Shown here in pieces: positions 15,546 through 36,138 of a DNA stretch of 64,000 nt. Numbering within the stretch: the stretch's first letter is position 1; each line of letters opens with the position of its first letter. The DNA is from Pseudomonadota bacterium (GTDB taxonomy: Bacteria > Desulfobacterota > JAPLJL01). The stretch lies in NCBI GenBank assembly GCA_026388655.1, contig JAPLJI010000138.1:471-64470 (forward strand), given 5' to 3'. Below the pieces are notes generated by a model. That model saw only the letters and a program-made list of their open reading frames with translations. It was not told the DNA's origin and did no database searches. The position numbers were made by a program, and so were the translations under genes.

Positions 15546-15560
15546 GTTTTTCCAAAAAAC

Positions 15561-17183: not shown

Positions 17184-17224
17184 AAAATCTCCTTTTTGAG
17201 CTCGAAAAATGCAGTTAACATTTT

Positions 17225-17400: not shown

Positions 17401-17411
17401 CAGGTTAAAAG

Positions 17412-19001: not shown

Positions 19002-19003
19002 TA

Positions 19004-19645
19004 ATGTTTGTCCGGATCCCGAGAAACTTTTACCAGGAAAATTTTATCCGGGAGAATGCCAACCTCACCACCGGGAACCTCTACTTCCATCCCCATCCGC
19101 TCCTCCGCTGGGTTTTCTGGGAGAGACTCCGGCAGATCTACCGTTTGGTCCGGGAGATAAAAGCAGAAACGGTTCTCGATCTCGGGTGCGGGGGAGGGGA
19201 GCTTCTTCCCACCCTGGCCGGGCTTTTCCCCCGGATTTGGGGAATTGATTTACAAGTTACCAACGCCCGGAGGGTGGTGGAATATTATCAGTTAAAGAAT
19301 GTTACCCTGATTGAAGGGGATTTCCTAACCCATGATTTCCGCCCGGCGTTCTTTGACCTGGTGGTGGCAGCGGATGTGCTCGAGCACCAGCGCGACCTGG
19401 AAGTTTTTTGCCGGAGAATGCACTCGGTTTTGAAAACCGGGGGAATCGCGGTGGTTTGCCTGCCGCGGGAAGGATTTTTCTACCATCTCGGCCGGAAGCT
19501 CTTCAGGATTTCCCCTCCGGAGGATCATTTCCAGAGTTATCGAGAAATCCGGGCCGGCCTGGAACGGCATTTCCAGGTCCAGGGGATTTCGGGCTTGCCC
19601 TTTATTCTTCCCCTCTTCGCGGTATTTAAATGTTTTAAAAAATAA
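19004..19645 (+). CDS. Class I SAM-dependent methyltransferase
   Basis: VLDLGCGGGELL motif I. Acidic post-II motif (AADVLEH). Confidence 0.65.
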   Translation: MFVRIPRNFYQENFIRENANLTTGNLYFHPHPLLRWVFWERLRQIYRLVREIKAETVLDLGCGGGELLPTLAGLFPRIWGIDLQVTNARRVVEYYQLKNVTLIEGDFLTHDFRPAFFDLVVAADVLEHQRDLEVFCRRMHSVLKTGGIAVVCLPREGFFYHLGRKLFRISPPEDHFQSYREIRAGLERHFQVQGISGLPFILPLFAVFKCFKK

Positions 19646-19652
19646 TAAAAAA

Positions 19653-21044: not shown

Positions 21045-21052
21045 ATAAATTC

Positions 21053-22459
21053 ATGGCCCGGATTGCTTTAATAAAATGCTCCCTTCCCCGGAGCTTTAAC
21101 CTGGTGATCTCACCACCTCTCGGAATCATGTATTTGGCTTCCGCCCTGCGCCGGAAAAATCATGAAGTAAAAATTATCGATTATCGCCTGCATCCCGGCT
21201 GGCTGGACCGTTTGCAGGAGGAACTCAGGCTGTTTTCCCCCGAGATTGTGGGTTTGTCTTCCCTCACCCAGGAAGCGAATTCGATTGCCGAAATTGCCGC
21301 GGTGGCTAAAAAGACGCCCGGAGTCAAGTTCATTATTGCGGGCGGGGCCCACCCCTCCGCGCATGCCCGGCAGATTTTAAAAGACCCCAATATTGATGTA
21401 GTGGTGCTCGGAGAAGGGGAAGTAACGGTTCCGGAATTGATTGAATGTCTGGAAGCGGGTAAAAGCATTCAGGAAATCGCGGGCATCGCCGGGAAGACCG
21501 CCGGAAAAATAGTTGAGAATGCCCCCCGCCCCTATGTCGAAAACCTGGACCGGGTACCCTTTCCGGCCTGGGACTTGATAGATTTAAAAAGCTATTCCAG
21601 CCGCCGGAGGTTTGGATACCTTCCCCGGAGGAAATATATGTCAATAATGACTTCCCGGGGTTGTCCTTTTTCCTGCATATATTGTCACAAGCTGTTTGGG
21701 AAAATGTTTCGGCCCCGGAGCCCGGGGAATGTCCTGGCGGAAATGGAGGAATTGTCTGACCGATACGGGATGCGAGAGTTCGAAATAGATGATGATGTTT
21801 TTAATTTTGAAATTCCCCGGGCGCAGGAAATTCTAGAGCGGATTGAGGCGAAAGCATGGGGAGTCAAACTGGCTTTTCCCAATGGCCTGCGCGGTGACCG
21901 CTTGAATTACGAGATTTTGGGAAAATTTAAATCAGCGGGGACCTACCTTCTGGCCATGGCCGTGGAAACCGTTTCCCCCCGCCTGCAGAAACTGATCGGG
22001 AAGAACCTCGACCTCGAGCGGGTCCGGCAGTCGGCGGAAGATTGCCGGAGACTCAAGATCACCACCCTGGGGTTTTTCATGCTGGGGTTTCCGACCGAAA
22101 CCCCGGAGGAAGCCCGGGCCACGGTGGAATGGGCGGTCAAGTCGAAGTTTGATTTTGCGTCTTTCACCATGATGGTTCCCTATGGCGGGACAAGATTATG
22201 GAAATCGCTGGAAGAAACAGGAAGGATTTCAGAACTACCTGATTTCATTGATCTGGATTACCATCGGAGTCGTTACAACCTAAGCGAGGTTCCCGACCGG
22301 GAATTATTTAATCTCCAGAGATGGGCCTATTGGAAGTTTTACATCGGGAGGATATTCGCTTTTGTTTTCCGAGGTTTGCTGTTCAAGATTGACTGGGAAA
22401 ATGGGATCAGGAATTTTTCCCGAGCGTTCTTCATTAAAAAGCGGGGATTCCTCAAGTGA
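21053..22459 (+). CDS. B12-binding radical SAM protein (subfamily I)
   Basis: MARIALIKCSLP..., MTSRGCPFSCIYCH, FRPRSP, FPNGLRGD, ETVSPRLQ. Confidence 0.8.
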   Translation: MARIALIKCSLPRSFNLVISPPLGIMYLASALRRKNHEVKIIDYRLHPGWLDRLQEELRLFSPEIVGLSSLTQEANSIAEIAAVAKKTPGVKFIIAGGAHPSAHARQILKDPNIDVVVLGEGEVTVPELIECLEAGKSIQEIAGIAGKTAGKIVENAPRPYVENLDRVPFPAWDLIDLKSYSSRRRFGYLPRRKYMSIMTSRGCPFSCIYCHKLFGKMFRPRSPGNVLAEMEELSDRYGMREFEIDDDVFNFEIPRAQEILERIEAKAWGVKLAFPNGLRGDRLNYEILGKFKSAGTYLLAMAVETVSPRLQKLIGKNLDLERVRQSAEDCRRLKITTLGFFMLGFPTETPEEARATVEWAVKSKFDFASFTMMVPYGGTRLWKSLEETGRISELPDFIDLDYHRSRYNLSEVPDRELFNLQRWAYWKFYIGRIFAFVFRGLLFKIDWENGIRNFSRAFFIKKRGFLK

Positions 22460-23868
22460 AAATTCTGCTGGCGATTCCTCCCCGCCTCACCAATATCCAT
22501 CGAGATGTTGCTTTTAATGCCTCGGCTCCACATCTGGGAGTGGCTTATCTGGCCGCGGTATTACGGAAGCAGAATTACCAAGTTACGGTAGTCGATGCCC
22601 AGGTTGAAGGTATTTCCTTGGGGGAATTTAAACGGAGAGTAAGGTTGTGCAATCCAGAACTGGTGGGATTCACGGCTTTTACCGAACAGGTTGAGGAAGC
22701 CCACCGGGCAGCGCAGATGATCAAGGAATCCAATCCGAATCTCCCGATCGTGGTCGGAGGTTGTCACCCTTCGGCCTTGCCCCGGGAAACCCTGGAGGAA
22801 TTCCCTCGGTTTGATTTTATCGTGGCGGGAGAAGGGGAGAACACCCTTCTGGACCTGGTGGAAAGAATAAGCCGGAAAGATGGTTTCACCGATCTTCCCG
22901 GGGTCAGCTATCGGGACGGTTCCCGGGTAATCTGCAATTCCCCCCGGAAATACATTAAAGACCTGGATACGCTGCCTTTTCCCGCGTTCGATCTTTTCCC
23001 CCTGGATCGGTATAAGAATTATTACCGGATTTTAAACCGGGGCAGGAACCTTCCCCTTCTGACTTCCCGCGGCTGCCCGTATTCCTGCATTTTCTGCTAC
23101 AAACTCATGGATGCGCCGGTTCGGTTTCGTTCTGTAGATAATGTCATGGAAGAGATCCGGCACTGGGTGAATAATTATTCGGTACGGCAATTCATTGTCA
23201 TGGATGAATGTTTTACACTGAAAAAGGATCGGGCCATTAAAATCAGCGAGGCTATCCTAGAAGAAGGGCTGCAGAAGCAGATGACCTTCGCCTGCGAAAC
23301 CAGGGTGGATTTGATTGACCGTGAAATCCTAGGAAAATTGAAAGAGGCAGGTTGCTTTTTAGTAAGTTATGGAGTGGAGTCCGGCAACCAAGATATCATT
23401 AATCAAACTCAAAAAAGAATACAAGTCGAACAGGCGGAGAAAGCGTTCAGTCTAACCCGACAAGCTGGGATAAAATCTCAAGCCAATTTTATTATCGGAT
23501 TTCCGAGTGAAAGTGCAAACCAGGTAAAAGATACAATTCGCCTGGCTATGAGAATAGATTCGGATTATTGTATTTTCAATATTCTCTCGCCTTTTCCTGG
23601 TACCCGGGTGTTGGAAATGGTTCAGTCAGGGGAGAGTGGAGCAAAGCTGCTTTCAAAAAAATGGAGCCAATTCGGCAAACATATGGGTTCAGCTTATGAA
23701 ACAGATCTGCTCTCTCGTCGACAATTAGAGAAATTACAGCTTGCCGCTTATATTAAATTTTATTTACGGGGGCGCCGTATAGGAAATCTATTCCGACATG
23801 TAAGACTTAGATTCTTCCCTGTTTATTTATGGCGTTTGATCTTTATTTATTTTAAAAGCAGATTATGA
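22456..23868 (+). CDS. B12-binding radical SAM protein (subfamily II). The 3' part falls to low G+C.
   Basis: GTG start overlapping the upstream stop. FTAFTEQVEEA. LTSRGCPYSCIFC. From about 23150 onward the coding sequence is much more AT-rich. Confidence 0.8.
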   Translation: MKILLAIPPRLTNIHRDVAFNASAPHLGVAYLAAVLRKQNYQVTVVDAQVEGISLGEFKRRVRLCNPELVGFTAFTEQVEEAHRAAQMIKESNPNLPIVVGGCHPSALPRETLEEFPRFDFIVAGEGENTLLDLVERISRKDGFTDLPGVSYRDGSRVICNSPRKYIKDLDTLPFPAFDLFPLDRYKNYYRILNRGRNLPLLTSRGCPYSCIFCYKLMDAPVRFRSVDNVMEEIRHWVNNYSVRQFIVMDECFTLKKDRAIKISEAILEEGLQKQMTFACETRVDLIDREILGKLKEAGCFLVSYGVESGNQDIINQTQKRIQVEQAEKAFSLTRQAGIKSQANFIIGFPSESANQVKDTIRLAMRIDSDYCIFNILSPFPGTRVLEMVQSGESGAKLLSKKWSQFGKHMGSAYETDLLSRRQLEKLQLAAYIKFYLRGRRIGNLFRHVRLRFFPVYLWRLIFIYFKSRL

Positions 23869-24533
23869 AAATGAGTATTTTAGATTCAATACGAAGAAAA
23901 TTCATAATTTACAGTTCGTTTATTTACGATATGAGAACTATTATTTATCCGCTTACTCTGCAGACAAAATATTATCATAAAATAATTAATATGGCGGAGA
24001 TAAAAAATGGATTTAGAATTTTAGATATAGGATGTGGAACAGGAATGCTAGGGATTTTGTTGAAAACTTTATATGGAAGTTCAATTGAGTATTTTGCTGT
24101 GGATCCCAATAAATATGTTGTTAAAGCTGCTCAGATCAAAGCCGATAAAAATAATTATAATTTTAAAATTTTAAGAGGAAAAATTGAAAATATGCCATTT
24201 AAAGATAAATCGTTTGATTTAATATTTTGTAATTTAGTCGTTCATCATTTACCGCTGAATATATTTAAAACCGGGTTGTCAGAGATTAGAAGAGTTTTAA
24301 AATCAAAAGCTAATCTTTTGATTTTTGATTATTGTCCTACACATTCATTTGTCCATTATATTGTTTATTTAATTACATACGTTTGGACTTCAATTCATGA
24401 ACATGGAAAAGATTTATTCAAAGGACGAATGCCTATTCATTTAGAAAAAGAATTTAGCGATATAAATGTTTTCCAGATATCCAAATTATTTCCTTTAGCG
24501 ATTTATAGAGCGAAAAATGACTCAATTAAATAA
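23865..24533 (+). CDS. Class I SAM-dependent methyltransferase (AT-rich island)
   Basis: ILDIGCGTGMLG. ATGA overlap with the upstream gene. Confidence 0.65.
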   Translation: MKMSILDSIRRKFIIYSSFIYDMRTIIYPLTLQTKYYHKIINMAEIKNGFRILDIGCGTGMLGILLKTLYGSSIEYFAVDPNKYVVKAAQIKADKNNYNFKILRGKIENMPFKDKSFDLIFCNLVVHHLPLNIFKTGLSEIRRVLKSKANLLIFDYCPTHSFVHYIVYLITYVWTSIHEHGKDLFKGRMPIHLEKEFSDINVFQISKLFPLAIYRAKNDSIK

Positions 24534-26346
24534 ATATTTGAATACTGAGATAAACAGTAAATATTATTTAGCATTTATAATATTAGTATCAATATTATTA
24601 AGGCTTAATGGACTTGAAATGGCATTGCCATATTTTCATTCTGATGGAGGAGATGTAGTTCCCGTAGCATATAATATAGTAAAGAATCATGACTTTGATT
24701 ACAAGATATATAAATATGGCGGATTTTATTTTTATTTATCCGCGATTTATTTTTACATTATATTTATATGCATATGGATTTTAAATTGGTTCTCTATTCC
24801 TTTAAAAGAAATAATAAATTCTTATTCACTTCAAAGCGACACAACTCTTTCATTATTTTATTTTAGCAAGTATTTATCCTTTTTGATTGGTATTACGACC
24901 ATAATAGCGACTTATTTTATCGCCAAAATTCTGTTTAATAAGAAAGTTGCTTTATTATCTGCATTTTTATTGGCTATTCATCCTCTTCATATTTTACAAT
25001 CTCAGCTTGCCAATGTTGATATTAGCCTGCTTCTTTGGGTGCTGTTAAGCTTCTATTGCTCAATAAAGATATTAAATTCTCCTAATATTATTTATTATAT
25101 CTTGAGTAGTATATTTATAGGTTTATCCATGTCCACAAAATATTATTTCTTTGGTATATTTCCGCTTCTAGTATGTCACATATTAAAAAATAAAAAAGAT
25201 AATAAAATAAATGTAAAATCCATATTTAATCCAAAAATGATTATATCTATATATTTAATTATTATTGTATTTATTGTAACAAATCCTTATTTTGTTTTCA
25301 AATTATATGAAATAATTAAAAAACCTTTGCAATTAATATTATCATTAACCTTAACTCCACGTTTTAATAATAATTTATTAAGTAAATTAATGATGGGAAT
25401 TGTTTACCAAATATTATTTAGTTCAATTGTACTAAATATACCAATATTTATTTTATTTATTATAGGTATGAAAAATATTAAAATATATAATGTAAATTAT
25501 TTTTTAATATTTTTATTATCTGTCGGTATTTATATGATTTTATTTATTTTGATTATAAAATATCCATTTCCTCAGTATTTATTACCGATATTACCATTTG
25601 TTATAATTATATGTTCCTATTATATATTTGAAAAGAAGTACCTTAAGAATTATTTAAATGTTATAAAATATTTATTACTTATTTTTGGAATAATATATTC
25701 TCTTTCAGATATAATAATGCCACATTATAGATCTATAATAAATTCTCATTTACAGATGGGAAAATGGATTGAAAGTAAAAATAATGATGGTAAAAGCGTA
25801 TTTTTACCAAACATGTTATTTTTTTCAACAATATATTTAAAGCAAAATAATAATTTCATTTATTATGGAAAAAAGAAAACAAAATATTATGATTATTTAG
25901 GTGGTATTGAAGAAAAGCAATCAGATTTAAATACATTTAATTCAACATTTATTACTTTAGTAAATCCAGATTACTTAATTACTTTTAATGCGGATTATTT
26001 ACATTCTTTCCCGACATCACTTTCATTTGAATCAGACATTTATTTTAAAACTATTAATGATATTGAAAAAGGAAAATATAACTATAAAATAATTAAAGAG
26101 ATTTCACCACCAGATTACTGGATGAATCTGGCAAAATTAATTATGCCTATGATTAAAAATTATAAATTTAAAATATATCAAAAAACAAATATCTATAATC
26201 AAGATGATAAAATAATATTTATTAATAATTTATTTAAAAATAAAGATATTAATAAAAAAGAAATAGATTTTCTTCCTTTATATATTAAAGATATTAAAAA
26301 TCCGGAAAAGAATATTTTGAAAAATATAATTAATAAATATCGTTAA
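24517..26346 (+). CDS. GT-C fold membrane glycosyltransferase, PMT/ArnT-like (AT-rich island)
   Basis: PYFHSDGGDVVPVAYNIV loop. YKYGGFYFYL. MSTKYYF. 609 aa with many transmembrane helices. Extremely AT-rich codon usage. Confidence 0.6.
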   Translation: MTQLNKYLNTEINSKYYLAFIILVSILLRLNGLEMALPYFHSDGGDVVPVAYNIVKNHDFDYKIYKYGGFYFYLSAIYFYIIFICIWILNWFSIPLKEIINSYSLQSDTTLSLFYFSKYLSFLIGITTIIATYFIAKILFNKKVALLSAFLLAIHPLHILQSQLANVDISLLLWVLLSFYCSIKILNSPNIIYYILSSIFIGLSMSTKYYFFGIFPLLVCHILKNKKDNKINVKSIFNPKMIISIYLIIIVFIVTNPYFVFKLYEIIKKPLQLILSLTLTPRFNNNLLSKLMMGIVYQILFSSIVLNIPIFILFIIGMKNIKIYNVNYFLIFLLSVGIYMILFILIIKYPFPQYLLPILPFVIIICSYYIFEKKYLKNYLNVIKYLLLIFGIIYSLSDIIMPHYRSIINSHLQMGKWIESKNNDGKSVFLPNMLFFSTIYLKQNNNFIYYGKKKTKYYDYLGGIEEKQSDLNTFNSTFITLVNPDYLITFNADYLHSFPTSLSFESDIYFKTINDIEKGKYNYKIIKEISPPDYWMNLAKLIMPMIKNYKFKIYQKTNIYNQDDKIIFINNLFKNKDINKKEIDFLPLYIKDIKNPEKNILKNIINKYR

Positions 26347-27743
26347 ATGTTAAGTAATAATCGAATAGAAGATCTAATTTTATTAAAAAATTCTTTTAAT
26401 GTTTTTGTTTCAAATAATATTTCGTAAATTTTACCAATTCTTAAATAAAATTTTCGGTAAGACCATTTAATGATTTTTGATAATTGTTGGAAGGTAAGAA
26501 TATTGCTACAATGTATCACTGCAAAATCTTCACTTGGGTTTAGAGCATATTCCTGAAAATAATCGCGTTTAAAGTATCCCTTATCAATCATCCATTGATA
26601 AAGTTCAGTTTTTGGAACAGGGGTTAAAATACAAAAACGAGCATAATTGGGATTTAATTTAATGGCATATTTAACGGTATCTTTAATGTCCTTTATGGTT
26701 TCTTCCGGAAATCCAATTATAAAATCTGCGTTGGTTTTGATCCCATATTTATTGGCTAAATAAAAAGAATCTTCAATTTGTTTGATATTGATTCTTTTTT
26801 TAATAAAATCAAGATTATTAGGAGCGAATGATTCGACTCCAAATTCAATTTTATCACAGCCAGCCTTTTTTAAAAGGTTACAAATATCATCATCTATAAT
26901 ATCTACTCTTCCATTAATAAGCCATTTAATAGTTAAATTTCTTGAAATAAATTCATTGCAGACATTTGAAACCCATTTCTTACTTACATTGAAAGTGCCT
27001 TCAACAAAATCGAGATATTTATATCCTTGTTTGGATAACATTTCAACTTCATCGGCAAGATTAGAAGGTGAGCGGTATCGATAAATTGAAGTTGACATAG
27101 TACAAAAAATACATTTATATGGGCAACCTCGACTGCCGACTATTGTTGTGAATGGATATTCACGATGAGCGGTTGCACTATAATATTGTTGAGGTAAAAA
27201 AGATCGATCGGGGAAAGGTAAAGTATCTAAGTTTTTTATGATAGCAGGTGAGTTGTTTTTTATATATTGATTATTATTTTTAAACCAGATTCCAGGAATA
27301 TCAACAGGAATCTGGTTAATATTTAAAGCTTCAGCAAGTTTAGTAAAAGCTATTTCACCATCTCCGATTGTTATTGAATCTACGAAAGGAAATTTTAAAG
27401 TTTCATCCGGATATAAAGTGAGGTGAGGACCGCCTAAATTAATATGAATTTTGGGATTATAATTTTTGATATATTTGCACAGATAGGTAAGACCGAATAA
27501 TTCATATGTATATGAAGTAATCCCAACTAGATCGGGGTTGAAAATTTTTAAAGTATCATCTAATTTATTATAATCTCTGGCAGTTAACATATCCAATATT
27601 TTTACATTATAATCCTTTTCCTTTTTCATATAAGCTGCAATATATAACAAACCAAGAGGAATAAAATGTCCTTCAAAGTGGGTTTTGGGAAAGGCGGATT
27701 TAATCATTTTGAATCTTGGGGGAGAAATAAGTAATATCTTCAA
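26343..27743 (-). CDS. B12-binding radical SAM protein (AT-rich island)
   Basis: MKILLISPP.... VGSRGCPYKCIFC. Convergent 4-nt stop overlap with the 24517 gene. Confidence 0.8.
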   Translation of the reverse strand: MKILLISPPRFKMIKSAFPKTHFEGHFIPLGLLYIAAYMKKEKDYNVKILDMLTARDYNKLDDTLKIFNPDLVGITSYTYELFGLTYLCKYIKNYNPKIHINLGGPHLTLYPDETLKFPFVDSITIGDGEIAFTKLAEALNINQIPVDIPGIWFKNNNQYIKNNSPAIIKNLDTLPFPDRSFLPQQYYSATAHREYPFTTIVGSRGCPYKCIFCTMSTSIYRYRSPSNLADEVEMLSKQGYKYLDFVEGTFNVSKKWVSNVCNEFISRNLTIKWLINGRVDIIDDDICNLLKKAGCDKIEFGVESFAPNNLDFIKKRINIKQIEDSFYLANKYGIKTNADFIIGFPEETIKDIKDTVKYAIKLNPNYARFCILTPVPKTELYQWMIDKGYFKRDYFQEYALNPSEDFAVIHCSNILTFQQLSKIIKWSYRKFYLRIGKIYEILFETKTLKEFFNKIRSSIRLLLNI

Positions 27744-29992
27744 AAGGCATCCTTTCTAAAATTATTAAGAATTAAGAAAGATATAATGAACAAAACAATA
27801 CCAGAAAAATAAAATATTTTAAAGCCCCAAAATATGGGAATAATTAAAGAAAGCAAACCTCCGAAAATTACACCGAGAGCATCGATCGAATAGATTAGAA
27901 TCAAACGAGATTTATGGCCGAAAAAGATAGATGGAAAAAAAGAACCGGATAAGAAAATTAAAGGAATTGAAAAAAGTAACAAAATTAAGTTGTTGTTAGT
28001 ATTAATTAAAACAAGAAAAAATATTGATGATAATAAACAAACGATGAAAATGATATTTACGTGTTTTTTATTTGTCAATATGCTACCCAAACCGGCAAAG
28101 AATAAAAATAATACGGTACCCCAAAAAGCTGAATCCATTGGAATTGAAAGGTATTTTAGAAGTAAGTATATTATCAAGTATTCCAATAAAATAAAATTAA
28201 GTCCAATCATAAAACTAATTAAGGAAAGCTTGATAATATTTTTTGGAAATTCAGTATTTCTGAAAATCAGTTTTTTCCTAATAATTATGTTTATTAATAT
28301 CATAAAAATAACAGTCAAGAATACAATAAGAGAACAAAACAAATAAGTTATTTTAGGGGTAATAAAAATTGAAATCGCATGAATTGGAAATGGTTTGTCA
28401 TCAGTTATATCTACGATATCTGATGATAAGCCTAAATTATTAGTATTTATTTCACGATATTTATATTTTGAAAGGTTTTCAAACAATTTATTTTGAAGGT
28501 TAAAGTCGAAAGTACCTTTCTGTCCGATAATCATATAGGAAAATATCGGTATTTGGTTAGAATTAATTTCCTGGCTAATCGGCCATGAAGTATTATCATT
28601 GAGAAAACCATAAGTGTTTAGACCTAAATCTTCTAACATTTTAAAAGATCTTTTAAAAAATATTAGGTTGGGATCAAAAGGAGTAATCTTAATTATTGCT
28701 AGGATTCCTCCTTCTTTCAAATGGTGAGCTATAGATTGAAATGCTTCTCGAGTATATAAAGTTTGGGAAGGTTCGAAATATGCTTTTAAACTAGTCAAAT
28801 GTGAATCAACTGATGATAAAAGAATCAAATTAAATTTTTGAGTGGTATTTTGAATATATTTTCTTCCATCAGTCGAATAAACTTTAACTTTGGGGTTTTG
28901 ATAGACGTGACCGGGATAATAATTTTTAAAATATTCAATGACTTTGGGAATTATTTCTACCGCAACTATTTTTTGAGGATTTTGAAGCTCCAATGCTTCT
29001 TTTAATTGTAATCCGCCACCCGACCCCAAAATAGCTATATCAAGGCTGGAAGAATCAGGAATAGAATTCAACAAGTTATAATCAAGGAAAAAATGACTTG
29101 AAGATGAAGAAATAAATTGTTTTAAATTCTTTGGATATATCCAGGCAAGCAAACCATTGTAAAACCCATAAATTAAATTATTATCTTCGCTGATTGATAA
29201 ATGGCAATATTTTGACCAACCTTGAAAAATATTTTTTGAATCTAAATTAGAAAAATATTTTGTTGAAAAACCTGATTCTTTGCTTTCGAGAATATCAAGG
29301 TAAATGTTTTCCAATTTTGAATTGAATAGCATGATAATCAAAATTAATATTTTGGCATAATTTAAATAATTATTTTTTGATTTGATTAATAAATTTGCGG
29401 ATATAATTCCGATTAAAGAGAAAAATATTAATGAACTGATCCCGACATGATCTAATAATAATCTGAAAAATAAATAAGATGATGCGGTACCGAAAAGGTA
29501 CAAACTGTAAATTAATTTGCTGTTTTGATTAAGATATGTCAAACCAATCTGATACCCTAAAAATTCAGTCATTCCGTAAGAAATAAAAAATGATAAAAAG
29601 AATAATATGCCGAAAAATAGTCTTATTATTAATTTTAAAATAAGTATATAATTCGAAGAAAGATCGATTCCAAAAAATAAAAAATTCTCAATTTTAATGA
29701 AAATAATGAATAAGATTAATGAAGAAATCATGGAAAATTCAGTAATATATAAACTTTTCTGAAAATCATGTCTGTTATCATTGAAATATTTAATGGAAAT
29801 AATTGATCCGATTGGCATCCCAAACAAAAGCAAAATGAAAAAATAAATAACGGGAATAATTAAAAATGAAAGGGTTTGGAATATTGTCAATGAAAATAAA
29901 CCAGTAGAAAAAGAAAGAATAAATAATGAAAATGCAATTCTGGTTCTAAAAATATTTACATATTTAAATTTATAATTTATTAAATTAACCAT
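27740..29992 (-). CDS. Polytopic membrane protein fused to a spermidine synthase-like (aminopropyltransferase / class I methyltransferase-fold) domain
   Basis: About 12 predicted transmembrane helices plus LDIAILGSGGGLQLKEALE ... VAVEIIPKV (SpeE-like). 750 aa. AT-rich. Confidence 0.5.
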   Translation of the reverse strand: MVNLINYKFKYVNIFRTRIAFSLFILSFSTGLFSLTIFQTLSFLIIPVIYFFILLLFGMPIGSIISIKYFNDNRHDFQKSLYITEFSMISSLILFIIFIKIENFLFFGIDLSSNYILILKLIIRLFFGILFFLSFFISYGMTEFLGYQIGLTYLNQNSKLIYSLYLFGTASSYLFFRLLLDHVGISSLIFFSLIGIISANLLIKSKNNYLNYAKILILIIMLFNSKLENIYLDILESKESGFSTKYFSNLDSKNIFQGWSKYCHLSISEDNNLIYGFYNGLLAWIYPKNLKQFISSSSSHFFLDYNLLNSIPDSSSLDIAILGSGGGLQLKEALELQNPQKIVAVEIIPKVIEYFKNYYPGHVYQNPKVKVYSTDGRKYIQNTTQKFNLILLSSVDSHLTSLKAYFEPSQTLYTREAFQSIAHHLKEGGILAIIKITPFDPNLIFFKRSFKMLEDLGLNTYGFLNDNTSWPISQEINSNQIPIFSYMIIGQKGTFDFNLQNKLFENLSKYKYREINTNNLGLSSDIVDITDDKPFPIHAISIFITPKITYLFCSLIVFLTVIFMILINIIIRKKLIFRNTEFPKNIIKLSLISFMIGLNFILLEYLIIYLLLKYLSIPMDSAFWGTVLFLFFAGLGSILTNKKHVNIIFIVCLLSSIFFLVLINTNNNLILLLFSIPLIFLSGSFFPSIFFGHKSRLILIYSIDALGVIFGGLLSLIIPIFWGFKIFYFSGIVLFIISFLILNNFRKDAF

Positions 29993-29996
29993 TATT

Positions 29997-31781
29997 TTAT
30001 TTAGAATATATTTCAGTATTGATGGAAGAAAGATTTAAACGAAAAACACCATAACTAGACATTATGTATAATGACTGATTGTCAGGAGTCAAAAATAATC
30101 CTCTTGGTTTATTTCCAACCAAAAATGATTTAATTATTTTGCCATTTGTTTTGTTTAAAATTAATAACTTACCTTGTCGATAATCAGATAAATATAATAA
30201 ATTTCTTTGGTTGTCGACAATAATATTAAATATAAAAGGGTGGGATTGGAAGATAGATTTGACTGAAAAATCATTTAAATCATATTCAATAATTTTGCCT
30301 TTCAAAAGATAGGCAACAAAAATAGAATTATTTCCAATGGATGCAGCCGATACCAAATCATCGAAATGAAATACTTTTTCAATTTTCATATTATTTGAAT
30401 TAATTAATAATCTTTTTGAAATTTTATCTGCGATAAAAACATAATAATAATTTTTATTTTTATTTTCGAGTAACATATAACCCTGATCACCGAATTTAAT
30501 GATGTGTTCATTTAAAAAATCAAGGCGTTTGATTTGAATTAATTTATCATTATGGTCGGATTTTTTATTTGTAGAATTATTAATATAATCAGGAAATAAG
30601 TAAATATCAAAATAATTGAGGAAATTATTTATAAGAACTTTTAAAAAGCGTTTTATAATATGAAATGATTTATTTTTATGTGAATTAAATCTGGAAGAAT
30701 CATAATCATCTATTGTTTTCTGGAATATATCATTGTTTGATTGAGAAATGTTACTTGGTATTGGAGGTAAGTGATATTGATCAAGAAAGACATTAGTAGT
30801 TGAAAGAATTGAAATACTTTGATTATCTTCGTTTACAATTAACTGGATAGGTTCTTTAAAGTTTTCACTCAATTGAAATCTTTTTAAAATAAGGAATTTT
30901 TCTTTAGAAATAATATAAAATAAATTTAAATCCCAATCTATGGCATAAATATAATCGGAGTAGGAACTTGGATAGAAATTTCTGACCACGCCTCCGATGA
31001 CGCATTGATAATTTAAATTATCATTAACAGATACTTTGCATAAAATCGGATTTTTATTGTAAAGAAAATTAAAAGTAGATCCCATAGAAAAATATATTTC
31101 TTTTTTGTCATCATCTAAGAAGATCTGACGATTATGAGTCATGTCTATAGGTATAGATTTAGAATAGAAAGGCTTTTCTCGACATTTATTAGACCAAAAA
31201 ATAGGTTCAAGATTATTTTGATCATAAATTTTATTACAAGAAGGTCCGGCTAAGGAATAATAAAATATGAATGAAACAGGAACGAGACCCAGGAAGACAA
31301 TAATAATACTAATTAAAAAGGATTCTGTATGGGAAAACCATTTTCTGAAAATTAGATAAGATAAGACGGAAATAATTAAAATCGGGACATAAAAGATAAA
31401 TTCTTTTTCAGTTACTTTTATTAGTATTGGAATGGTAACATTAATAATCCATCGGACCCATCCGATCTGATTCCATAAATTAAGGAATGTGAACCAACAA
31501 AAAGTTAAAGTAATTAAAAAGATTATATTAAAAATAATATTTTTATTTGAAACAATTTTTAAAATAAAAATGAGAACTATTAATGAAATGAATTTGAAAA
31601 AAAGAGAATTTAAATCCCAATTGAGTTGACTAAGGAAAAAATAAAATTGCCAAAAAGCGATAAAAATCAAAAAAAACGAAGAAATCCAAAATATTAACGA
31701 ATGAAAGAATATTAATAATTTAGAATCAGATCTGAGCAAGGTTTTAAATACGATTAAAAGTTCTACGCAAAAAAAGCACAA
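29997..31781 (-). CDS. Membrane-anchored hypothetical protein with a C-terminal beta-propeller-like repeat region
   Basis: N-terminal cluster of transmembrane helices. The C-terminal part is rich in beta-strand-like repeats (NKPRGLFLTPDNQSLYI). 594 aa. AT-rich. Confidence 0.4.
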   Translation of the reverse strand: MCFFCVELLIVFKTLLRSDSKLLIFFHSLIFWISSFFLIFIAFWQFYFFLSQLNWDLNSLFFKFISLIVLIFILKIVSNKNIIFNIIFLITLTFCWFTFLNLWNQIGWVRWIINVTIPILIKVTEKEFIFYVPILIISVLSYLIFRKWFSHTESFLISIIIVFLGLVPVSFIFYYSLAGPSCNKIYDQNNLEPIFWSNKCREKPFYSKSIPIDMTHNRQIFLDDDKKEIYFSMGSTFNFLYNKNPILCKVSVNDNLNYQCVIGGVVRNFYPSSYSDYIYAIDWDLNLFYIISKEKFLILKRFQLSENFKEPIQLIVNEDNQSISILSTTNVFLDQYHLPPIPSNISQSNNDIFQKTIDDYDSSRFNSHKNKSFHIIKRFLKVLINNFLNYFDIYLFPDYINNSTNKKSDHNDKLIQIKRLDFLNEHIIKFGDQGYMLLENKNKNYYYVFIADKISKRLLINSNNMKIEKVFHFDDLVSAASIGNNSIFVAYLLKGKIIEYDLNDFSVKSIFQSHPFIFNIIVDNQRNLLYLSDYRQGKLLILNKTNGKIIKSFLVGNKPRGLFLTPDNQSLYIMSSYGVFRLNLSSINTEIYSK

Positions 31782-31807
31782 AAAATCGGAAGAGGTAAGA
31801 TTTTAAT

Positions 31808-33238
31808 TTAGATAAAAAGATTAATTCTCAATCTTTTTAATGATTTTCCCAGATAAATCATAAGGAAAGAAATAAATATTTGTCTGAAACTATAAAATTT
31901 AAGGAAAGGTTTACGCATAATCCGAAAAATACGTCCCGGAAAGTAAAATTTCCAATAGGCTTTTCTTTGGGTTTTATTCAAATCAAACCCGGTGGCAAAG
32001 GAATAAAAAGACTTGCCGTAGTAATACAGGTCATAATCAATATTATCAATATCAGGATACTGAAGGCGGGCGAGTTCATATAAAGGAGTTTTACGAAAAG
32101 GGACCACATTGAAAAAAGAAGCAAAAAGAAGAGGGGATTTAACCGCGAAATCCACCGTTTTGTTAATCTCCTCCTGTGTCTCAGTGGGAAAACCGATCAT
32201 AAAATAACCTTTGGTGAGAAACCCCAATTGATCGGCAGCAATTATCATCTCTATGGTTTTATTAAGATCAAGGTTTTTCTTAATCATTTTCTGAATGCGG
32301 AGAGAGGCAGATTCCACTGCGAAGCTGAGTATATAAGCTCCGGCTTTCTTTAAGAGGGATAACAATTCCCTGTCGAGCAAGTCGGCGCGGATTCCGTTCG
32401 GGAAAGCAATCTTTATTTTTAAACCCTCGGCAATAATTCGCCGGCAAATCTCTTTGGCTCTTTCCGCATGATAGTTGAAACAATCGTCAACGATGTGAAA
32501 CTCTTTTATCCTATAGCGAGAAACTAGGATCTTGATTTGCTCCAAAACGTTTTGCGGACTCGCTTCCCGGATGCTTTTCCCCAAAATGTCATGACAATAA
32601 GCACACTGAAAAGGGCATCCCCGGGAAGTGAAAATGTACATATAAGGCCTGGCAGCCAAAATCACGTTCGCGTTCTGGATCCATCGGGAATAAGCCGGAA
32701 TATCTACGAGATCCCAGGCCGGAAAAGGCAGGGTATCAAGATCAGCGACCGGTTTACGGTTCCCCGAATGGTTGATATTACCGTTTTGCCGATAAGCGAT
32801 CCCTTCTACCTTGGTAATATCTCCATCACGAAAGTATGTATCAAGTAATTCGGTGAAGGTTATTTCCCCTTCCCCGATTACTACCCAGTCCACTCGATTA
32901 TCCTGTAAAATTTCCGTGCTCCACATGGTACCATAAGGTCCCCCAACTACCACCCGACAATCCGGTTTGAATTCCTTGATCAGTCGGGCGGTCCGGTGCA
33001 CCGCCTGTCGTTCAAAAGCTAGGGCGCTCAGACCCACCAACTCGGGGTCGAAATCCTGTAGAACTTCCTTAAGTTTTTCGGGTTTCATCCGGGTGAGATT
33101 CATGTCCACAATTTTTATCTGGTATTGCTCTTTCCCAAATTTTCGAATGGCCGACGCTAAGTGCATCAGCCCCAGTGGAGGCCCCGCTACATGCACAGGG
33201 TAGGGTTGAAAAACCCGGGCCAAAAGGATTTTTCTCAT
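31808..33238 (-). CDS. B12-binding radical SAM protein (subfamily I). The C-terminal, 3' part is AT-rich.
   Basis: FTSRGCPFQCAYCH, FPNGIRAD, ESASLRIQ, GYFMIGFPTET. Confidence 0.8.
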   Translation of the reverse strand: MRKILLARVFQPYPVHVAGPPLGLMHLASAIRKFGKEQYQIKIVDMNLTRMKPEKLKEVLQDFDPELVGLSALAFERQAVHRTARLIKEFKPDCRVVVGGPYGTMWSTEILQDNRVDWVVIGEGEITFTELLDTYFRDGDITKVEGIAYRQNGNINHSGNRKPVADLDTLPFPAWDLVDIPAYSRWIQNANVILAARPYMYIFTSRGCPFQCAYCHDILGKSIREASPQNVLEQIKILVSRYRIKEFHIVDDCFNYHAERAKEICRRIIAEGLKIKIAFPNGIRADLLDRELLSLLKKAGAYILSFAVESASLRIQKMIKKNLDLNKTIEMIIAADQLGFLTKGYFMIGFPTETQEEINKTVDFAVKSPLLFASFFNVVPFRKTPLYELARLQYPDIDNIDYDLYYYGKSFYSFATGFDLNKTQRKAYWKFYFPGRIFRIMRKPFLKFYSFRQIFISFLMIYLGKSLKRLRINLFI

Positions 33239-34707
33239 CTCCTGTACCTCCGAACTCGAACCCAGAAAAATCTCAAAAGCTGGGCTAGATTTCTCTCAAA
33301 CAGAAGAAAGAAAAAGAAGTGTTTGATCCGGAATTCCGCTACCGGCCGGTAGATCGACACTATAAAATTTACCCACCTGGGAGCGTTGTATTCCCGGGCC
33401 TTTCGATCTAAAAAATTGGACAGGAAGTAAAGCTTGGCCAGTCTTGAGCTTTTTTCCCTCCCTGAACGATTCTTTTTCTCCTGATCCCACCCGCCCGTCC
33501 TTCCCCACCCTTCCAAGGAATCGGGTATATCGTAGCCCTCCCGGGCTGCTGTATCAAACATCAAAGTTCCGGGATATGGGGTGTAACTGTAGAGCGGAGA
33601 AATTTGGACCCGGGGGTTGCTTCGCTTGAGCCCGAGAATAAGCTGCAGGGTGAGCCGCAGGTCTTCCTCTTCTTCGCCGGGGAAACCCACGATAAAACTG
33701 CAATAGACCGAGAGCGGGAACGGTTTTAACCTCGAGATCTGCTCGCCGACCTCCTCCACGGTCTCCCCCTTACCCATTAACTTTCGGACCCGAGGTGAGC
33801 CTGATTCCACCCCCAAAGTAATCCGGAGGCAGCCGCTTTCTACTAAAGATGCGAGAAAATCATCATCCATCCGTTTCAGCGAGGTAACATCCACCCCCTG
33901 AATTTGCCACGAAAGCCGCAGGTTCTTCAGGCCCGCCATGATCTCCCGGCACCAGTCAAAATCGAGGAAAAAATTGTCATCCACGAAATAGATATTCTCC
34001 ACCCCATAATGTTGTTTTGCTGCCTGCAGCCGTGCAATAACCTGGCCAGCGGCTATCTTTCGCCATCTCCTCCGGTTGAAATTAGCGTTGTAGCAAAAGG
34101 TGCAGGCCGAGGGGCAGCCGCGAGAGGCTTGAAAATAAAAACTTCTCTGGCCTCGGTATAAGGGCAGATATTGCTTGACATTAATGAGGTGATAAGGTAG
34201 ATCGGGCAGGAGGTCTAGGTCTGAAAACTCCCTCTCGGGATTGGATTTGATCCCGCCGTTTTGCCGGTAAGAGATTCCCTTTATATTTTCCAGAGGGTTA
34301 CCTCTTAACAAGGCTTCGGTAAGTTCAAGTAAGGTGACCTCACCTTCGCCACGAATGACAATATCCACACGATTATCCCGGAGGGTATCTTCTGAGAGAA
34401 TTGATGGATGTACTCCCCCCCAGACAATGGGAACATTATGAATTTTCCTGATGGTAGCGCACATCTTGAGGGCCTCGAGAATCATGGGACCGGTGAAAGA
34501 TGTTACTCCCACAAGGACAGTATCCTGATCAATCAAATTTGGCAAAGAATTTTCTAATTTTTGATTCAATCTCTGATCGAGGAACCTGATTTCGTACTTC
34601 TGGGCAACTAGGGAAGAAGCGTGAAGCAAACCGAGGGGCAGGGCAGGATGAGTTCTCAGGAAATCCATGTCCCCGATCTTGGGTTGTAAAAGCACAAGGT
34701 TTTTCAT
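33235..34707 (-). CDS. B12-binding radical SAM protein
   Basis: Start preferred at MKNLVLLQPK (ATGA overlap with the upstream gene) rather than at 34752. QASRGCPSACTFC. Confidence 0.75.
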   Translation of the reverse strand: MKNLVLLQPKIGDMDFLRTHPALPLGLLHASSLVAQKYEIRFLDQRLNQKLENSLPNLIDQDTVLVGVTSFTGPMILEALKMCATIRKIHNVPIVWGGVHPSILSEDTLRDNRVDIVIRGEGEVTLLELTEALLRGNPLENIKGISYRQNGGIKSNPEREFSDLDLLPDLPYHLINVKQYLPLYRGQRSFYFQASRGCPSACTFCYNANFNRRRWRKIAAGQVIARLQAAKQHYGVENIYFVDDNFFLDFDWCREIMAGLKNLRLSWQIQGVDVTSLKRMDDDFLASLVESGCLRITLGVESGSPRVRKLMGKGETVEEVGEQISRLKPFPLSVYCSFIVGFPGEEEEDLRLTLQLILGLKRSNPRVQISPLYSYTPYPGTLMFDTAAREGYDIPDSLEGWGRTGGWDQEKKNRSGREKSSRLAKLYFLSNFLDRKAREYNAPRWVNFIVSIYRPVAEFRIKHFFFFLLFERNLAQLLRFFWVRVRRYRR

Positions 34708-36134: not shown

Positions 36135-36138
36135 AATA

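What the first reader, a model, noticed from the sequence alone, without database searches (positions are those of the whole stretch)
23150..32450. Very AT-rich island embedded in the GC-rich battery, carrying the same enzyme classes and bounded by chimeric radical SAM genes
Base composition drops abruptly over about 9 kb, with the core at 23.9-31.8 kb. The island nevertheless encodes the same functional set as the GC-rich flanks: a methyltransferase, a PMT-like GT-C gene, a B12-rSAM gene, plus two membrane proteins. Both boundaries lie inside B12-rSAM genes whose C-terminal-encoding halves point into the island and are AT-rich while their 5' halves are GC-rich (22456..23868 on plus, 31808..33238 on minus). 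This is the pattern expected if a module from a low-GC donor with a homologous system was recombined in via the conserved rSAM sequences. Mosaic genes of partly foreign origin are an alternative. No integrase or transposase is present.
Basis: seen in the sequence. Interest (0 to 1): 0.75.

Follow-up and report, generated by a model that had tools for sequence, protein, structure and literature searches.

The report
Strain-variable AT-rich core of enzyme battery
The very AT-rich 8 kb block is real and is the strain-variable centre of a large envelope-modification gene cluster. Co-occurring strains swap it piecewise by recombination, much as bacteria swap O-antigen or capsule genes, so it is not a one-off import of foreign DNA.

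Summary
The island is real. G+C falls from about 0.50 to 0.13-0.30 between about 23.8 and 32.0 kb, while the window ends are at 0.57-0.63. Independent assemblies from several sequencing runs and samples reproduce both junctions.

Comparison with related metagenome contigs changes the interpretation. At least four haplotypes (A = the window, and B, C, D) co-occur. A and B are 98-100% identical in the outer battery. Identity then falls stepwise towards the core (dS 0 to 0.3 to about 1 to saturated). The right half of the core holds different genes in A and B. Haplotype C shares 2 kb of the core with A at 97-100% but has a diverged boundary gene.

The jump from a normal-GC rSAM gene to AT-rich methyltransferase and GT-C genes is conserved in all four alleles. 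Every core is AT-rich and under purifying selection. One significant breakpoint lies inside the left boundary gene (about 23217). None was detected inside the right one.

This is a serotype-like variable cassette region that shows the pattern of exchange by homologous recombination. A single import from a low-GC donor is not supported, and no donor exists in the databases. Why the core stays AT-rich is unresolved.

The parts
22456..23868 (+). Left boundary B12-binding radical SAM gene. It is linked to the AT-rich methyltransferase and/or GT-C gene in four alleles (A, B, C and D; allele D lacks the methyltransferase).
   Evidence: Pfam PF02310 + PF04055. CxxxCxxC motif seen in alignment A2. Alleles are 78/72/69% identical. 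GC3 falls from 0.6 to 0.29 in the last third.
23200..23235 (.). Recombination breakpoint inside the left boundary gene (estimate 23217) between haplotype A (the window) and haplotype B
   Evidence: Maximum chi-square test: divergence 15% on the 5' side and 29% on the 3' side; 0 of 500 codon permutations reach the observed value. Sliding identity drops from 0.82-0.89 to 0.66-0.76.
23748..23868 (.). Left compositional step, G+C about 0.49 to 0.24-0.27
   Evidence: Likelihood change points at 23822 (one-step model) and 23748 (two-step model). The step is at the same place in haplotypes B and C.
23865..24533 (+). Class I SAM-dependent methyltransferase, G+C 0.265. Its start codon overlaps the stop codon of the boundary gene.
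   Evidence: Pfam Methyltransf_25/11/31. Alleles in B and C; dN/dS about 0.3.
24517..26346 (+). GT-C glycosyltransferase (PMT_2 / GT39-like, about 11 TM segments). This is the lowest-GC gene (0.208).
   Evidence: Pfam PF13231/PF02366. TM scan. NCBI names it a glycosyltransferase family 39 protein. Only its own alleles exceed 35% identity in 1.84 billion representatives.
25386..25485 (.). Breakpoint inside the island (within the GT-C gene) between haplotypes A and C. Identity is 74-95% to its left and 97-100% to its right.
   Evidence: Sliding identity, window against L023.
26343..26346 (.). Point where the two long gene arrays converge (plus strand 6553 to 26346, minus strand 38945 to 26343). 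The two stop codons overlap (TTAA) and there is no terminator-like site. The G+C minimum (0.13-0.16) lies here.
   Evidence: ORF coordinates, sequence, terminator scan, G+C profile.
26343..27743 (-). Island B12-binding radical SAM gene, from a different subfamily than the flank paralogues
   Evidence: Pfam. Identity to window paralogues is 31% or less, against 36-42% to outside proteins. Best PDB matches are AprD4, TokK and CysS. 99% identical in haplotype C.
27740..29992 (-). 750-aa polytopic membrane protein with a central spermidine-synthase-like (SAM-binding fold) domain. It is present in the A core only and has no paralogue in the window.
   Evidence: Pfam PF01564, residues 318-432. NCBIfam PRK03612-like, below cutoff. 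TM scan. PDB spermidine synthases. Nearest non-self homologue is 24% identical.
29997..31781 (-). 594-aa protein with N-terminal TM helices and a C-terminal YVTN-type beta-propeller-like region. There is no Pfam hit.
   Evidence: TM scan. PDB hits Lp49, an S-layer protein and YncE over residues 470-577. 36% identical to a 575-aa protein in the haplotype-B core.
31808..33238 (-). Right boundary B12-binding radical SAM gene. As a whole it is a deeply diverged allele (64% aa against haplotype B).
   Evidence: Pfam. Alignment A1. dS about 2.6, dN/dS 0.10. No significant internal breakpoint.
31900..32295 (.). Right compositional transition zone, G+C 0.25 | 0.37 | 0.49
   Evidence: Change-point analysis. 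The haplotype-B allele shows the same 3' decline.
33254..33403 (.). Right-hand A/B identity break. Identity is 83-99% on the outer side and 57-76% from here inward.
   Evidence: Sliding identity, window against L005.
21354..22253 (.). Outer left steps in A/B divergence: 100% to about 90% near 21400, then to about 80% near 22100
   Evidence: Sliding identity, window against L021. dS is 0.00 for 19653-21044 and 0.31 for 21053-22459.

Best explanation
The AT-rich block (about 23.8-32.0 kb) is the hypervariable centre of a roughly 50-kb battery. The battery holds about 18 B12-radical-SAM genes, five GT-C glycosyltransferase genes, several SAM methyltransferase genes and one polyprenyl-phosphate-sugar-synthase-like GT2 gene. 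The block lies where two long, tightly packed gene arrays converge.

Co-occurring strains of one uncultured bacterium (an NCBI MAG labelled 'Proteobacteria bacterium') carry alternative, anciently diverged versions of this centre. Breakpoints at and inside the conserved rSAM genes, and inside the core itself, indicate that pieces of it are reshuffled by homologous recombination. This produces a gradient of divergence towards the core. It is the population-genetic pattern of O-antigen and capsule loci.

SHOWN: the island and its junctions are real; the haplotypes, the mosaic identity blocks and the breakpoints exist; the compositional junction is old; the core genes are under purifying selection.

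INFERRED: haplotypes A and B belong to one species. The core encodes the specificity-determining, membrane- or periplasm-facing steps (GT-C, the 750-aa SpeE-like membrane protein, the membrane-anchored propeller) plus tailoring enzymes (methyltransferase, B12-rSAM) of a cell-envelope glycoconjugate or lipid. Diversity is kept by frequency-dependent selection, for example from phages or predators.

The low G+C is an old, conserved property of the core genes. It was probably acquired long ago from low-GC lineages and has not drifted back towards the host composition. How it is maintained is unknown.
For: REALITY OF THE ISLAND. The junctions are reproduced in independent assemblies and samples.

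HAPLOTYPES.
- B against the window is 98.3-98.6% identical over 43301-38569 and 99-100% over 18354-21400.
- Identity then falls stepwise to 65-79% on the left.
- On the right it is mosaic, alternating between 56-73% and 83-99% blocks.
- Beyond 31830 the gene set differs (rSAM467, 575 aa, rSAM483, MT276, rSAM468), up to a homologous convergent GT-C that is 53% identical in protein.
- C shares 25400-27377 at 97-100% but has a boundary gene only 69% identical, plus a stub and a truncated rSAM upstream.
- D has the boundary gene (72%) followed directly by the GT-C.

DIVERGENCE AND SELECTION. dS rises 0.00, 0.31, 0.97, 0.8-1.4 on the left, and 0.4-0.5, 2.6, saturated on the right. dN/dS is 0.10-0.36 wherever dS could be estimated.

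COMPOSITION. All cores are AT-rich, and the GC junction is conserved in four alleles.

BREAKPOINT at 23217.

FUNCTIONAL CONTEXT.
- The GT2 gene at 6553-7236 resembles AglJ, dolichyl-P-hexose synthases, PpgS and ArnC, which make donors for GT-C enzymes, but below the curated cutoffs.
- A Patescibacteria homologue of the island rSAM sits in a glycan locus with GT2 genes, Bac_transf and a Polysacc_synt flippase.
- The propeller region resembles surface-protein domains.

PRECEDENT. In Salmonella O-antigen clusters the centre (GT, wzx, wzy) is at 28-37% GC in a 51-52% genome, and both divergence and GC grade across the rml genes towards the specific centre (PMC3715488).
Against: - No Wzx/Wzy/Wzz, ABC transporter or sugar-nucleotide genes lie in the window, so a glycan product is an inference.
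- The haplotype contigs are short, and their membership of one species rests on about 8 kb of near-identical flank inside the battery.
- No haplotype B, C or D contig spans a whole core.
- Frequency-dependent selection is not tested.
- Deep divergence alone does not explain the low G+C. Segments at 37.4-38.6 kb are 56-69% identical yet have G+C 0.41-0.54. The AT-richness therefore still needs its own explanation.
- A related battery in MAG STA_72 has uniform G+C of about 0.55 and no AT-rich core in the 21 kb retrieved. This fits acquisition rather than an intrinsic feature of the battery.
Confidence: 0.6

Rival explanations
1. A single, fairly recent import of one module from a low-GC donor with a homologous system, integrated by homologous recombination inside the two boundary rSAM genes. 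Each boundary gene would then be a native-5'/foreign-3' chimera.
For: - GC3 declines in the last third of both boundary genes.
- A significant A/B breakpoint at 23217 coincides with the start of the decline on the left.
- The deep amino-acid bias of the island proteins implies long evolution under AT pressure.
- The nearest outside relatives of the island rSAM include many low-GC Patescibacteria.
- A related battery at uniform G+C lacks the core in the region retrieved.
Against: - The 3' thirds are intermediate (0.37-0.44), not island-like. The main steps lie 46 and 245 nt from the stop codons.
- The right boundary gene shows no internal breakpoint and is uniformly diverged from its allele, which has the same 3' decline.
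- The GC junction is shared by four alleles separated by dS of about 1-1.4.
- The alternative cores are also AT-rich.
- No candidate donor exists: 42% identity or less for the rSAM, 35% or less for the GT-C and 24% for the 750-aa protein, searched against billions of proteins.
Confidence: 0.12
2. The low G+C is generated or maintained in place, with no foreign origin. One version is a locally AT-biased equilibrium, because diverged alleles no longer recombine and so lack GC-biased gene conversion, or because of convergent transcription. Another version is selection for AT-rich sequence, such as low expression through rare codons or binding by a silencing nucleoid protein.
For: - The junction and the low GC3 (0.11-0.28) persist in alleles separated by dS of about 1, with no drift towards the host's roughly 0.6.
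- The G+C minimum sits exactly at the convergence point.
- The whole battery is GC-depressed relative to the window ends, with secondary dips.
- Identity and G+C correlate weakly (rho 0.36).
- There are no mobility genes.
- The same unexplained pattern is noted for wzx/wzy genes (PMC3715488).
Against: - Equally diverged segments (37.4-38.6 kb, and the 5' two-thirds of the right boundary gene) keep G+C of 0.41-0.54.
- The steps are sharp and lie at gene ends.
- The island rSAM belongs to a different subfamily from the battery paralogues, so it did not arise by local duplication followed by decay.
- The related STA_72 battery shows no such dip in the region retrieved.
Confidence: 0.15
3. The island is an integrative mobile element or a phage-derived serotype-conversion module.
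For: Atypical composition. GT-C genes carried on mobile serotype-converting modules (gtrC) are known from my own knowledge, not from a tool result.
Against: - No integrase, transposase, tRNA or att-like repeat.
- No specific PHROG or PADLOC hit beyond generic methyltransferase and rSAM folds.
- No relative of the GT-C in viral contigs.
- The genes overlap their neighbours at both edges.
- Strains carry alternative cassettes rather than an empty site.
Confidence: 0.03
4. The island is an assembly or binning chimera that joins DNA from two organisms.
For: The source is a metagenome-assembled genome, and the compositional change is extreme.
Against: - Both junctions recur in other assemblies from at least two runs and in JGI samples, with SNP differences between them.
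- The same architecture is present in diverged alleles.
- Intact ORFs with full-length orthologues cross the transition zones.
Confidence: 0.02

Closest known systems
O-antigen (rfb) and capsule loci of Enterobacteria, e.g. the Salmonella galactose-initiated O-antigen clusters (Reeves et al. 2013, PMC3715488)
   Same: - A strain-variable centre between conserved flanks within one species.
- The centre has much lower G+C than the genome, and the lowest values are in membrane-protein and GT genes.
- Segments differ in G+C.
- Both divergence and G+C grade across the flanking genes towards the specific centre.
- Exchange is by homologous recombination in the flanks.
- No integrase.
- The origin of the low G+C is unresolved.
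   Different: - No Wzx/Wzy/Wzz, ABC-transporter or sugar-nucleotide genes lie in the window.
- The locus is built from B12-radical-SAM, GT-C and methyltransferase genes.
- The recombination substrates are paralogous rSAM genes, not housekeeping genes such as galF and gnd.
- The G+C contrast is more extreme (0.13-0.30 against about 0.6).
- The product is unknown.
gtrABC-type glycan modification modules: a polyprenyl-P-sugar synthase (GT2) plus a variable, type-specific polytopic transferase (own knowledge, not tested here)
   Same: The battery holds a GtrB/ArnC/AglJ-like GT2 gene (6553-7236) and several polytopic GT-C-type transferases. The copy in the core is the most variable and the most AT-rich.
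   Different: There is no GtrA-like flippase and no phage context. The GT-C genes are PMT_2/GT39-like, not GtrC family. Many rSAM genes are present.
Class B (cobalamin-dependent) radical SAM enzymes: AprD4, TokK, CysS, TsrM, HpnP/HpnR, BchE
   Same: An N-terminal B12-binding domain plus a radical SAM core with a CxxxCxxC motif. The best solved-structure match of the island enzyme is AprD4, which acts on an aminoglycoside sugar.
   Different: No curated NCBIfam equivalog cutoff is reached by any of the three rSAM proteins scanned (the island enzyme and both boundary enzymes). Substrate and chemistry are unknown. Such enzymes have not been described, as far as I could find, as batteries of about 18 paralogues with a strain-variable core.
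Classical horizontally acquired genomic islands (tRNA-linked, integrase-bearing, flanked by direct repeats)
   Same: Atypical composition and codon usage, strain-specific content.
   Different: There is no integrase, tRNA or repeats. The genes overlap their neighbours at both edges. Alternative alleles replace an empty site. The compositional junction is ancient.

Membership tests
Surface-polysaccharide-type hypervariable locus (O-antigen/capsule-like) | Alternative, non-homologous or deeply diverged central gene sets between near-identical flanks in strains of one species | tested here: met
   A against B: flanks are 98-100% identical, core genes are 36-53% identical in protein or absent, and gene order differs. 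C and D are further alleles. Membership of one species is inferred from about 8 kb of flank only.
Surface-polysaccharide-type hypervariable locus (O-antigen/capsule-like) | The centre has lower G+C than the genome, with a gradient of G+C and divergence in the adjoining genes | tested here: met
   Compare PMC3715488.
Surface-polysaccharide-type hypervariable locus (O-antigen/capsule-like) | Wzx/Wzy or ABC-transporter processing genes and sugar-nucleotide synthesis genes | tested here: not met
   Pfam and NCBIfam scans of all ORFs of 150 aa or more in the window found none. Only a GT2 gene, five GT-C genes, methyltransferases and rSAM genes are present. It is therefore not filed as an O-antigen or capsule cluster; the resemblance is in how it evolves.
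Surface-polysaccharide-type hypervariable locus (O-antigen/capsule-like) | The product is a surface glycan that determines serotype or phage receptor | not testable with these tools
   This needs chemistry and genetics in an uncultured organism.
Integrative genomic island / prophage remnant | Integrase or transposase, tRNA or att target, flanking direct repeats | tested here: not met
Cobalamin-dependent (class B) radical SAM enzymes | An N-terminal B12-binding domain (PF02310) plus a radical SAM core (PF04055) with CxxxCxxC | tested here: met
   Both domains score above the gathering threshold in the island gene and both boundary genes. The motif C207-x3-C211-x2-C214 is invariant in alignment A2, and C208/C212/C215 in alignment A1.
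Cobalamin-dependent (class B) radical SAM enzymes | Assignment to a characterised subfamily (BchE, HpnJ/R, PhpK, AprD4 and others) | tested here: not met
   Every NCBIfam score is far below its curated cutoff, for example BchE 176-214 bits against a cutoff of 481.
GT-C glycosyltransferases (PMT_2 / GT39, ArnT-like) | A PMT_2 domain above threshold on a polytopic membrane protein | tested here: met
   PF13231 scores 50 bits against a cutoff of 26.1. About 11 TM-like segments. NCBI names it a GT39 family protein.
GT-C glycosyltransferases (PMT_2 / GT39, ArnT-like) | A catalytic acidic motif in the first extracytoplasmic loop, and use of a polyprenyl-phosphate sugar donor | not tested
   No structure model or motif analysis was made. 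A donor-synthase-like GT2 gene is present at 6553-7236.

The most novel reading that the evidence does not exclude
An uncultured anaerobe keeps a balanced, serotype-like polymorphism in a cell-envelope pathway built on cobalamin-dependent radical SAM chemistry and GT-C transferases. This would be a previously undescribed class of strain-variable surface-modification locus. Its core genes would hold an extreme AT composition (down to 13-20% G+C in a genome of roughly 60%) over an evolutionary depth of dS of 1 or more, next to normal-GC genes. That would mean low G+C is actively maintained in place rather than being a fading mark of transfer. Because the same unexplained pattern is seen in wzx/wzy genes, this locus could serve as an independent test case.
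Probability: 0.3. Interest if true: 0.7.

Novelty: new variant of a known kind. Interest (0 to 1): 0.5.

Why it matters
The locus shows that O-antigen-style evolution is not confined to classical polysaccharide clusters of cultured pathogens. That style combines a low-GC hypervariable centre, mosaic flanks and cassette exchange by homologous recombination. Here it occurs in an environmental, uncultured bacterium, in a locus made of B12-radical-SAM, GT-C and methyltransferase genes whose product is unknown.

It picks out the core genes (GT-C, the SpeE-like membrane protein, the membrane-anchored propeller, one rSAM and one methyltransferase) as the likely specificity determinants of that pathway.

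It also gives a clean natural test of whether low G+C in variable surface loci is inherited from donors or maintained locally. A sharp compositional junction is conserved across alleles that are saturated at synonymous sites.

For annotation practice, it warns against reading every AT-rich block as a recent foreign insertion.

Tried and rejected
DONOR SEARCH.
- The 750-aa protein has a nearest non-self hit of only 24% identity, in Desulfatibacillum, in an unrelated housekeeping context.
- The island rSAM reaches 42% at most.
- The GT-C reaches 35% at most, apart from its own alleles, in 1.84 billion representatives.
- Amino-acid composition of the hits, used as a proxy for donor G+C, gave a weak trend (FYMINK 0.36 against 0.31). 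It is confounded by query composition, so it was not used as evidence.

GENOME AND VIRAL SCANS.
- A scan of GTDB genomes with the left boundary protein found nothing.
- A second scan with alignment A2 found only distant batteries: STA_72 at 53%, the rest at 39% or less.
- A viral-contig scan with the GT-C found nothing.

MOBILE ELEMENT, DEFENCE SYSTEM OR RNA.
- No tRNA.
- Only low-complexity repeats. The single long inverted repeat, 22960-22994 with 32709-32743, is the conserved DLDTLPFPA motif of the two oppositely oriented boundary genes.
- PHROG and PADLOC hits were generic folds only.
- No Rfam family.
- Promoter-like sites are only mildly above the shuffled expectation, as expected for AT-rich DNA, and there is no terminator at the convergence point.

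LITERATURE. Searches for rSAM + GT-C batteries and for cobalamin rSAM glycan methylation found nothing relevant.

NOT ATTEMPTED, OR CUT SHORT.
The paralogues are only 25-57% identical in protein. Allele comparisons were used instead.
- Structure prediction of the 594-aa and 750-aa proteins was not run. Only very shallow alignments were permitted, and the function of these proteins is secondary to the finding.

Full report
1. THE OBSERVATION

G+C in 1-kb windows is 0.20-0.31 from 24 to 32 kb. The rest of the window averages 0.51 (sd 0.06, minimum 0.376), and the genes at the window ends are at 0.57-0.63. The minimum, measured in 200-nt windows, is 0.13-0.16 at 25.2-26.4 kb. All three codon positions are depressed: GC1 0.25-0.36, GC2 0.21-0.31, GC3 0.16-0.23. 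The encoded proteins are strongly enriched in F, Y, M, I, N and K (0.43-0.53, against 0.25-0.33 in flank paralogues). The bias is therefore deep and is not confined to synonymous sites.

- a class I SAM methyltransferase (23865-24533, +)
- a PMT_2/GT39 GT-C transferase (24517-26346, +)
- a B12-binding radical SAM enzyme (26343-27743, -)
- a 750-aa polytopic protein with a spermidine-synthase-like domain (27740-29992, -)
- a 594-aa protein with N-terminal TM helices and a beta-propeller-like C-terminus (29997-31781, -)

The surrounding window holds about 18 B12-rSAM paralogues, five GT-C genes, several methyltransferases and a GT2 gene that resembles polyprenyl-phosphate-sugar synthases. There is no integrase, transposase, tRNA or flanking direct repeat.

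2. THE BOUNDARY GENES

GC3 by sixths is 0.47/0.63/0.60/0.52/0.35/0.29 for 22456-23868 and 0.54/0.49/0.53/0.51/0.38/0.31 for 31808-33238. The gradient is real, but it covers the last third and its composition there is intermediate. The likelihood change points are at 23822, which is 46 nt before the left stop codon, and at 32053, with an intermediate zone at 31900-32295. Several paralogues also lose G+C in their last sixth, so part of the decline belongs to the gene family.

The genes are packed tightly across the transitions. Stop and start codons overlap at 23865-23868 and at 33235-33238. The island also sits exactly where two long gene arrays converge: the two stop codons overlap at 26343-26346.

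3. NOT AN ARTEFACT

Logan assemblies of SRR20698646 cover 25505-37413 with 3 mismatches and 17783-24339 with 1 mismatch. A Logan assembly of SRR12594517 covers 17834-24650 with 5 mismatches, all in the flank. A JGI contig (Ga0315297) covers 30845-36210 at 98.4%. The window derives from an NCBI MAG labelled 'Proteobacteria bacterium' (proteins MCX58678xx, contig of 67,595 bp).

4. RELATED SEQUENCES CHANGE THE PICTURE

The best hit of the island rSAM led to contigs L005, L006, L010, L017 and L019, called haplotype B here.

Right arm, B against the window:
- 98.3-98.6% identical to the window over 43301-38569
- then mosaic: about 60% (38570-37450), 84-98% (37450-36480), about 70% (36480-36030), 83-99% (36030-33330), and 57-76% across the whole right boundary gene
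- beyond 31830, no nucleotide homology

The B core carries a different gene set, all AT-rich at G+C 0.18-0.35:
- rSAM467, 42% identical to the island rSAM
- a 575-aa protein, 36% identical to the 594-aa protein
- rSAM483, MT276 and rSAM468
- then a convergent GT-C, 53% identical in protein to the island GT-C

Left arm, B (L021, L022) against the window:
- 99-100% identical from 18354 to 21400, apart from a 350-nt patch
- about 90% up to 22100
- 76-89% up to 23250
- 65-79% from there into the methyltransferase and GT-C genes

Haplotype C (L023-L025) begins homology at the start of the left boundary gene. That gene is 69% identical in protein. Identity is a mosaic of 74-95% up to about 25400 and 97-100% from 25400 to 27377, which is across the AT minimum and the convergence point. 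Upstream, C carries the tail of the 21053-22459 orthologue, a 17-codon stub of a boundary-type gene and a truncated rSAM gene. Haplotype D (L026, L027) has a 72% boundary allele followed directly by a 55% GT-C allele, with no methyltransferase.

Synonymous divergence between A and B is as follows:
- left side: 0.00 (19653-21044), 0.31 (21053-22459), 0.97 (boundary gene), 0.83 (methyltransferase), 1.39 (GT-C)
- right side: 0.53 and 0.40 for the two outer rSAM genes, 2.6 for the right boundary gene, and saturated in the core
- dN/dS is 0.10-0.36 wherever dS could be estimated, so the genes are functional

5. TESTING THE CHIMERIC-GENE CLAIM

For the left gene, a maximum chi-square test between A and B finds a breakpoint at gene nucleotide 761, which is window position 23217. 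Divergence is 15% on one side and 29% on the other, and 0 of 500 permutations reach this value. The position coincides with the start of the GC decline.

For the right gene there is no significant breakpoint (77 of 500 permutations reach the observed value). Third positions are near saturation along the whole gene, the protein is conserved evenly along its length, and the B allele shows the same 3' decline. [quoted passage not shown]

The compositional junction itself is conserved in alleles A to D. The boundary gene has GC3 of 0.46-0.61, and the downstream methyltransferase and GT-C have GC3 of 0.11-0.28. A junction shared by alleles with dS of about 1-1.4 cannot be the scar of a recent import.

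6. ORIGIN OF THE LOW G+C

No donor is detectable:
- the nearest non-self relative of the 750-aa protein is 24% identical
- the GT-C has nothing above 35% apart from its own alleles in 1.84 billion cluster representatives
- the best outside hits of the island rSAM are 36-42% identical, and many are labelled Patescibacteria; one of these sits in a glycan-synthesis locus

The island rSAM is still closer to those outside proteins than to any paralogue in the window (31% or less), so it is not a local duplicate that decayed. A related battery in MAG STA_72 has an 81% GT-C, a 76% methyltransferase and a 53% boundary-gene orthologue. It has uniform G+C of about 0.55 and no AT-rich core in the region retrieved.

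These points favour an old acquisition. Against simple decay in non-recombining alleles, equally diverged segments keep G+C of 0.41-0.54. Against a simple import, the low GC3 has not moved towards the host value over dS of about 1. The means of maintenance is therefore unresolved. The same is said of wzx and wzy genes (PMC3715488).

7. MECHANISM PROPOSED

The block is the specificity-determining, strain-variable centre of an envelope glycoconjugate or lipid modification pathway.

Shown: alternative cores exist, the flanks are mosaic, breakpoints lie at and inside rSAM genes and inside the core, and the core genes are under purifying selection.

Inferred, step by step:
- the GT2 enzyme makes a polyprenyl-phosphate sugar
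- the GT-C enzymes transfer it outside the membrane
- the rSAM and methyltransferase enzymes tailor the product
- the SpeE-like membrane protein and the membrane-anchored propeller act at the envelope
- diversity is kept by frequency-dependent selection

8. COMPARISON WITH KNOWN SYSTEMS, AND VERDICT

In its evolution the locus behaves like an O-antigen or capsule locus. Salmonella clusters show segments of different G+C, the lowest values in GT, wzx and wzy genes, and a gradient of divergence and G+C across the rml genes. It fails the compositional definition of such clusters, because it has no Wzx/Wzy, ABC transporter or sugar-nucleotide genes. It also fails the definition of an integrative island. 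The enzymes are class B rSAM and GT-C family members at superfamily level only.

I rate it a new variant of a known kind. The single-donor, two-chimera model is not supported. Interest is 0.5.

Noticed in passing
window 49513-50154, 51617-52108, 52177-52719: Three short ORFs are fragments of B12-rSAM genes. 49513-50154 (213 aa, B12-binding domain only) is 81% identical to the first 213 residues of a full-length 473-aa rSAM in MAG STA_72 (L028 17524-18945) and 51% identical to the left boundary gene. These look like truncation or recombination scars inside the battery.
   Followed up: partly
window 34704-36134 and 52817-54475: Two secondary G+C dips lie within the battery: an rSAM gene at 0.39 and a GT-C gene at 0.36 (FYMINK 0.42). 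The whole battery (7-56 kb, about 0.45-0.55) is GC-depressed relative to the window ends (0.57-0.63). The island is therefore the extreme of a general mosaic.
   Followed up: partly
window 19250-19600 (inside methyltransferase gene 19004-19645): A 350-nt patch is only about 70% identical between haplotypes A and B, and is embedded in sequence that is 99-100% identical. It looks like a short conversion tract.
   Followed up: no
window 37450-38570 and 36030-36480: Sharp blocks of 56-73% identity alternate with blocks of 84-99% between haplotypes A and B in the right arm. The breaks lie both at gene boundaries and inside genes, which shows the whole battery is a recombination mosaic.
   Followed up: partly
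L023 1-1602 (haplotype C): Upstream of its full boundary gene, haplotype C has the last 31 codons of the 21053-22459 orthologue, a 17-codon stub of a boundary-type gene, and a 334-aa rSAM that lacks the B12 domain. This is a footprint of exchange at the conserved 5' end of the rSAM genes.
   Followed up: partly
window 31445-31744 against L009: A 300-nt patch in the 594-aa gene is 95% identical, in a contig that otherwise matches the window at 99-100%.
   Followed up: no
window 22960-22994 and 32709-32743: A 35-nt inverted repeat (80% complementary) is formed by the conserved DLDTLPFPA motif of the two oppositely oriented boundary genes. Recombination between the two copies would invert the island. 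No inverted allele was seen.
   Followed up: no
window 55670-60469: A 1599-aa protein with a PA14 (carbohydrate-binding, adhesin-type) domain lies just downstream of the battery. An ECF sigma factor (4638-5123) with a gene named anti-sigma factor RsiW in JGI (3832-4641) and a caspase-domain protein (1535-3835) lie upstream.
   Followed up: no
window 46292-47674: A 460-aa protein inside the battery has no Pfam hit, but it has a weak NCBIfam match (36.5 bits, far below cutoff) to wax-ester/diacylglycerol acyltransferases. This hints at a lipid substrate.
   Followed up: no
L007/L008 (Patescibacteria MAGs): A 36% homologue of the island rSAM lies in a surface-glycan-type locus with GT2 genes, Bac_transf, a Polysacc_synt flippase, LPG_synthase_TM, a methyltransferase and an rSAM-SPASM gene. 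This supports a glycan-related role for this rSAM subfamily.
   Followed up: partly
window 5342-6496 (-) and 5390-6445 (+): Two long ORFs overlap almost completely on opposite strands. The minus-strand ORF has 4Fe-4S ferredoxin-type Pfam hits and the higher GC3, so it is probably the real gene.
   Followed up: no
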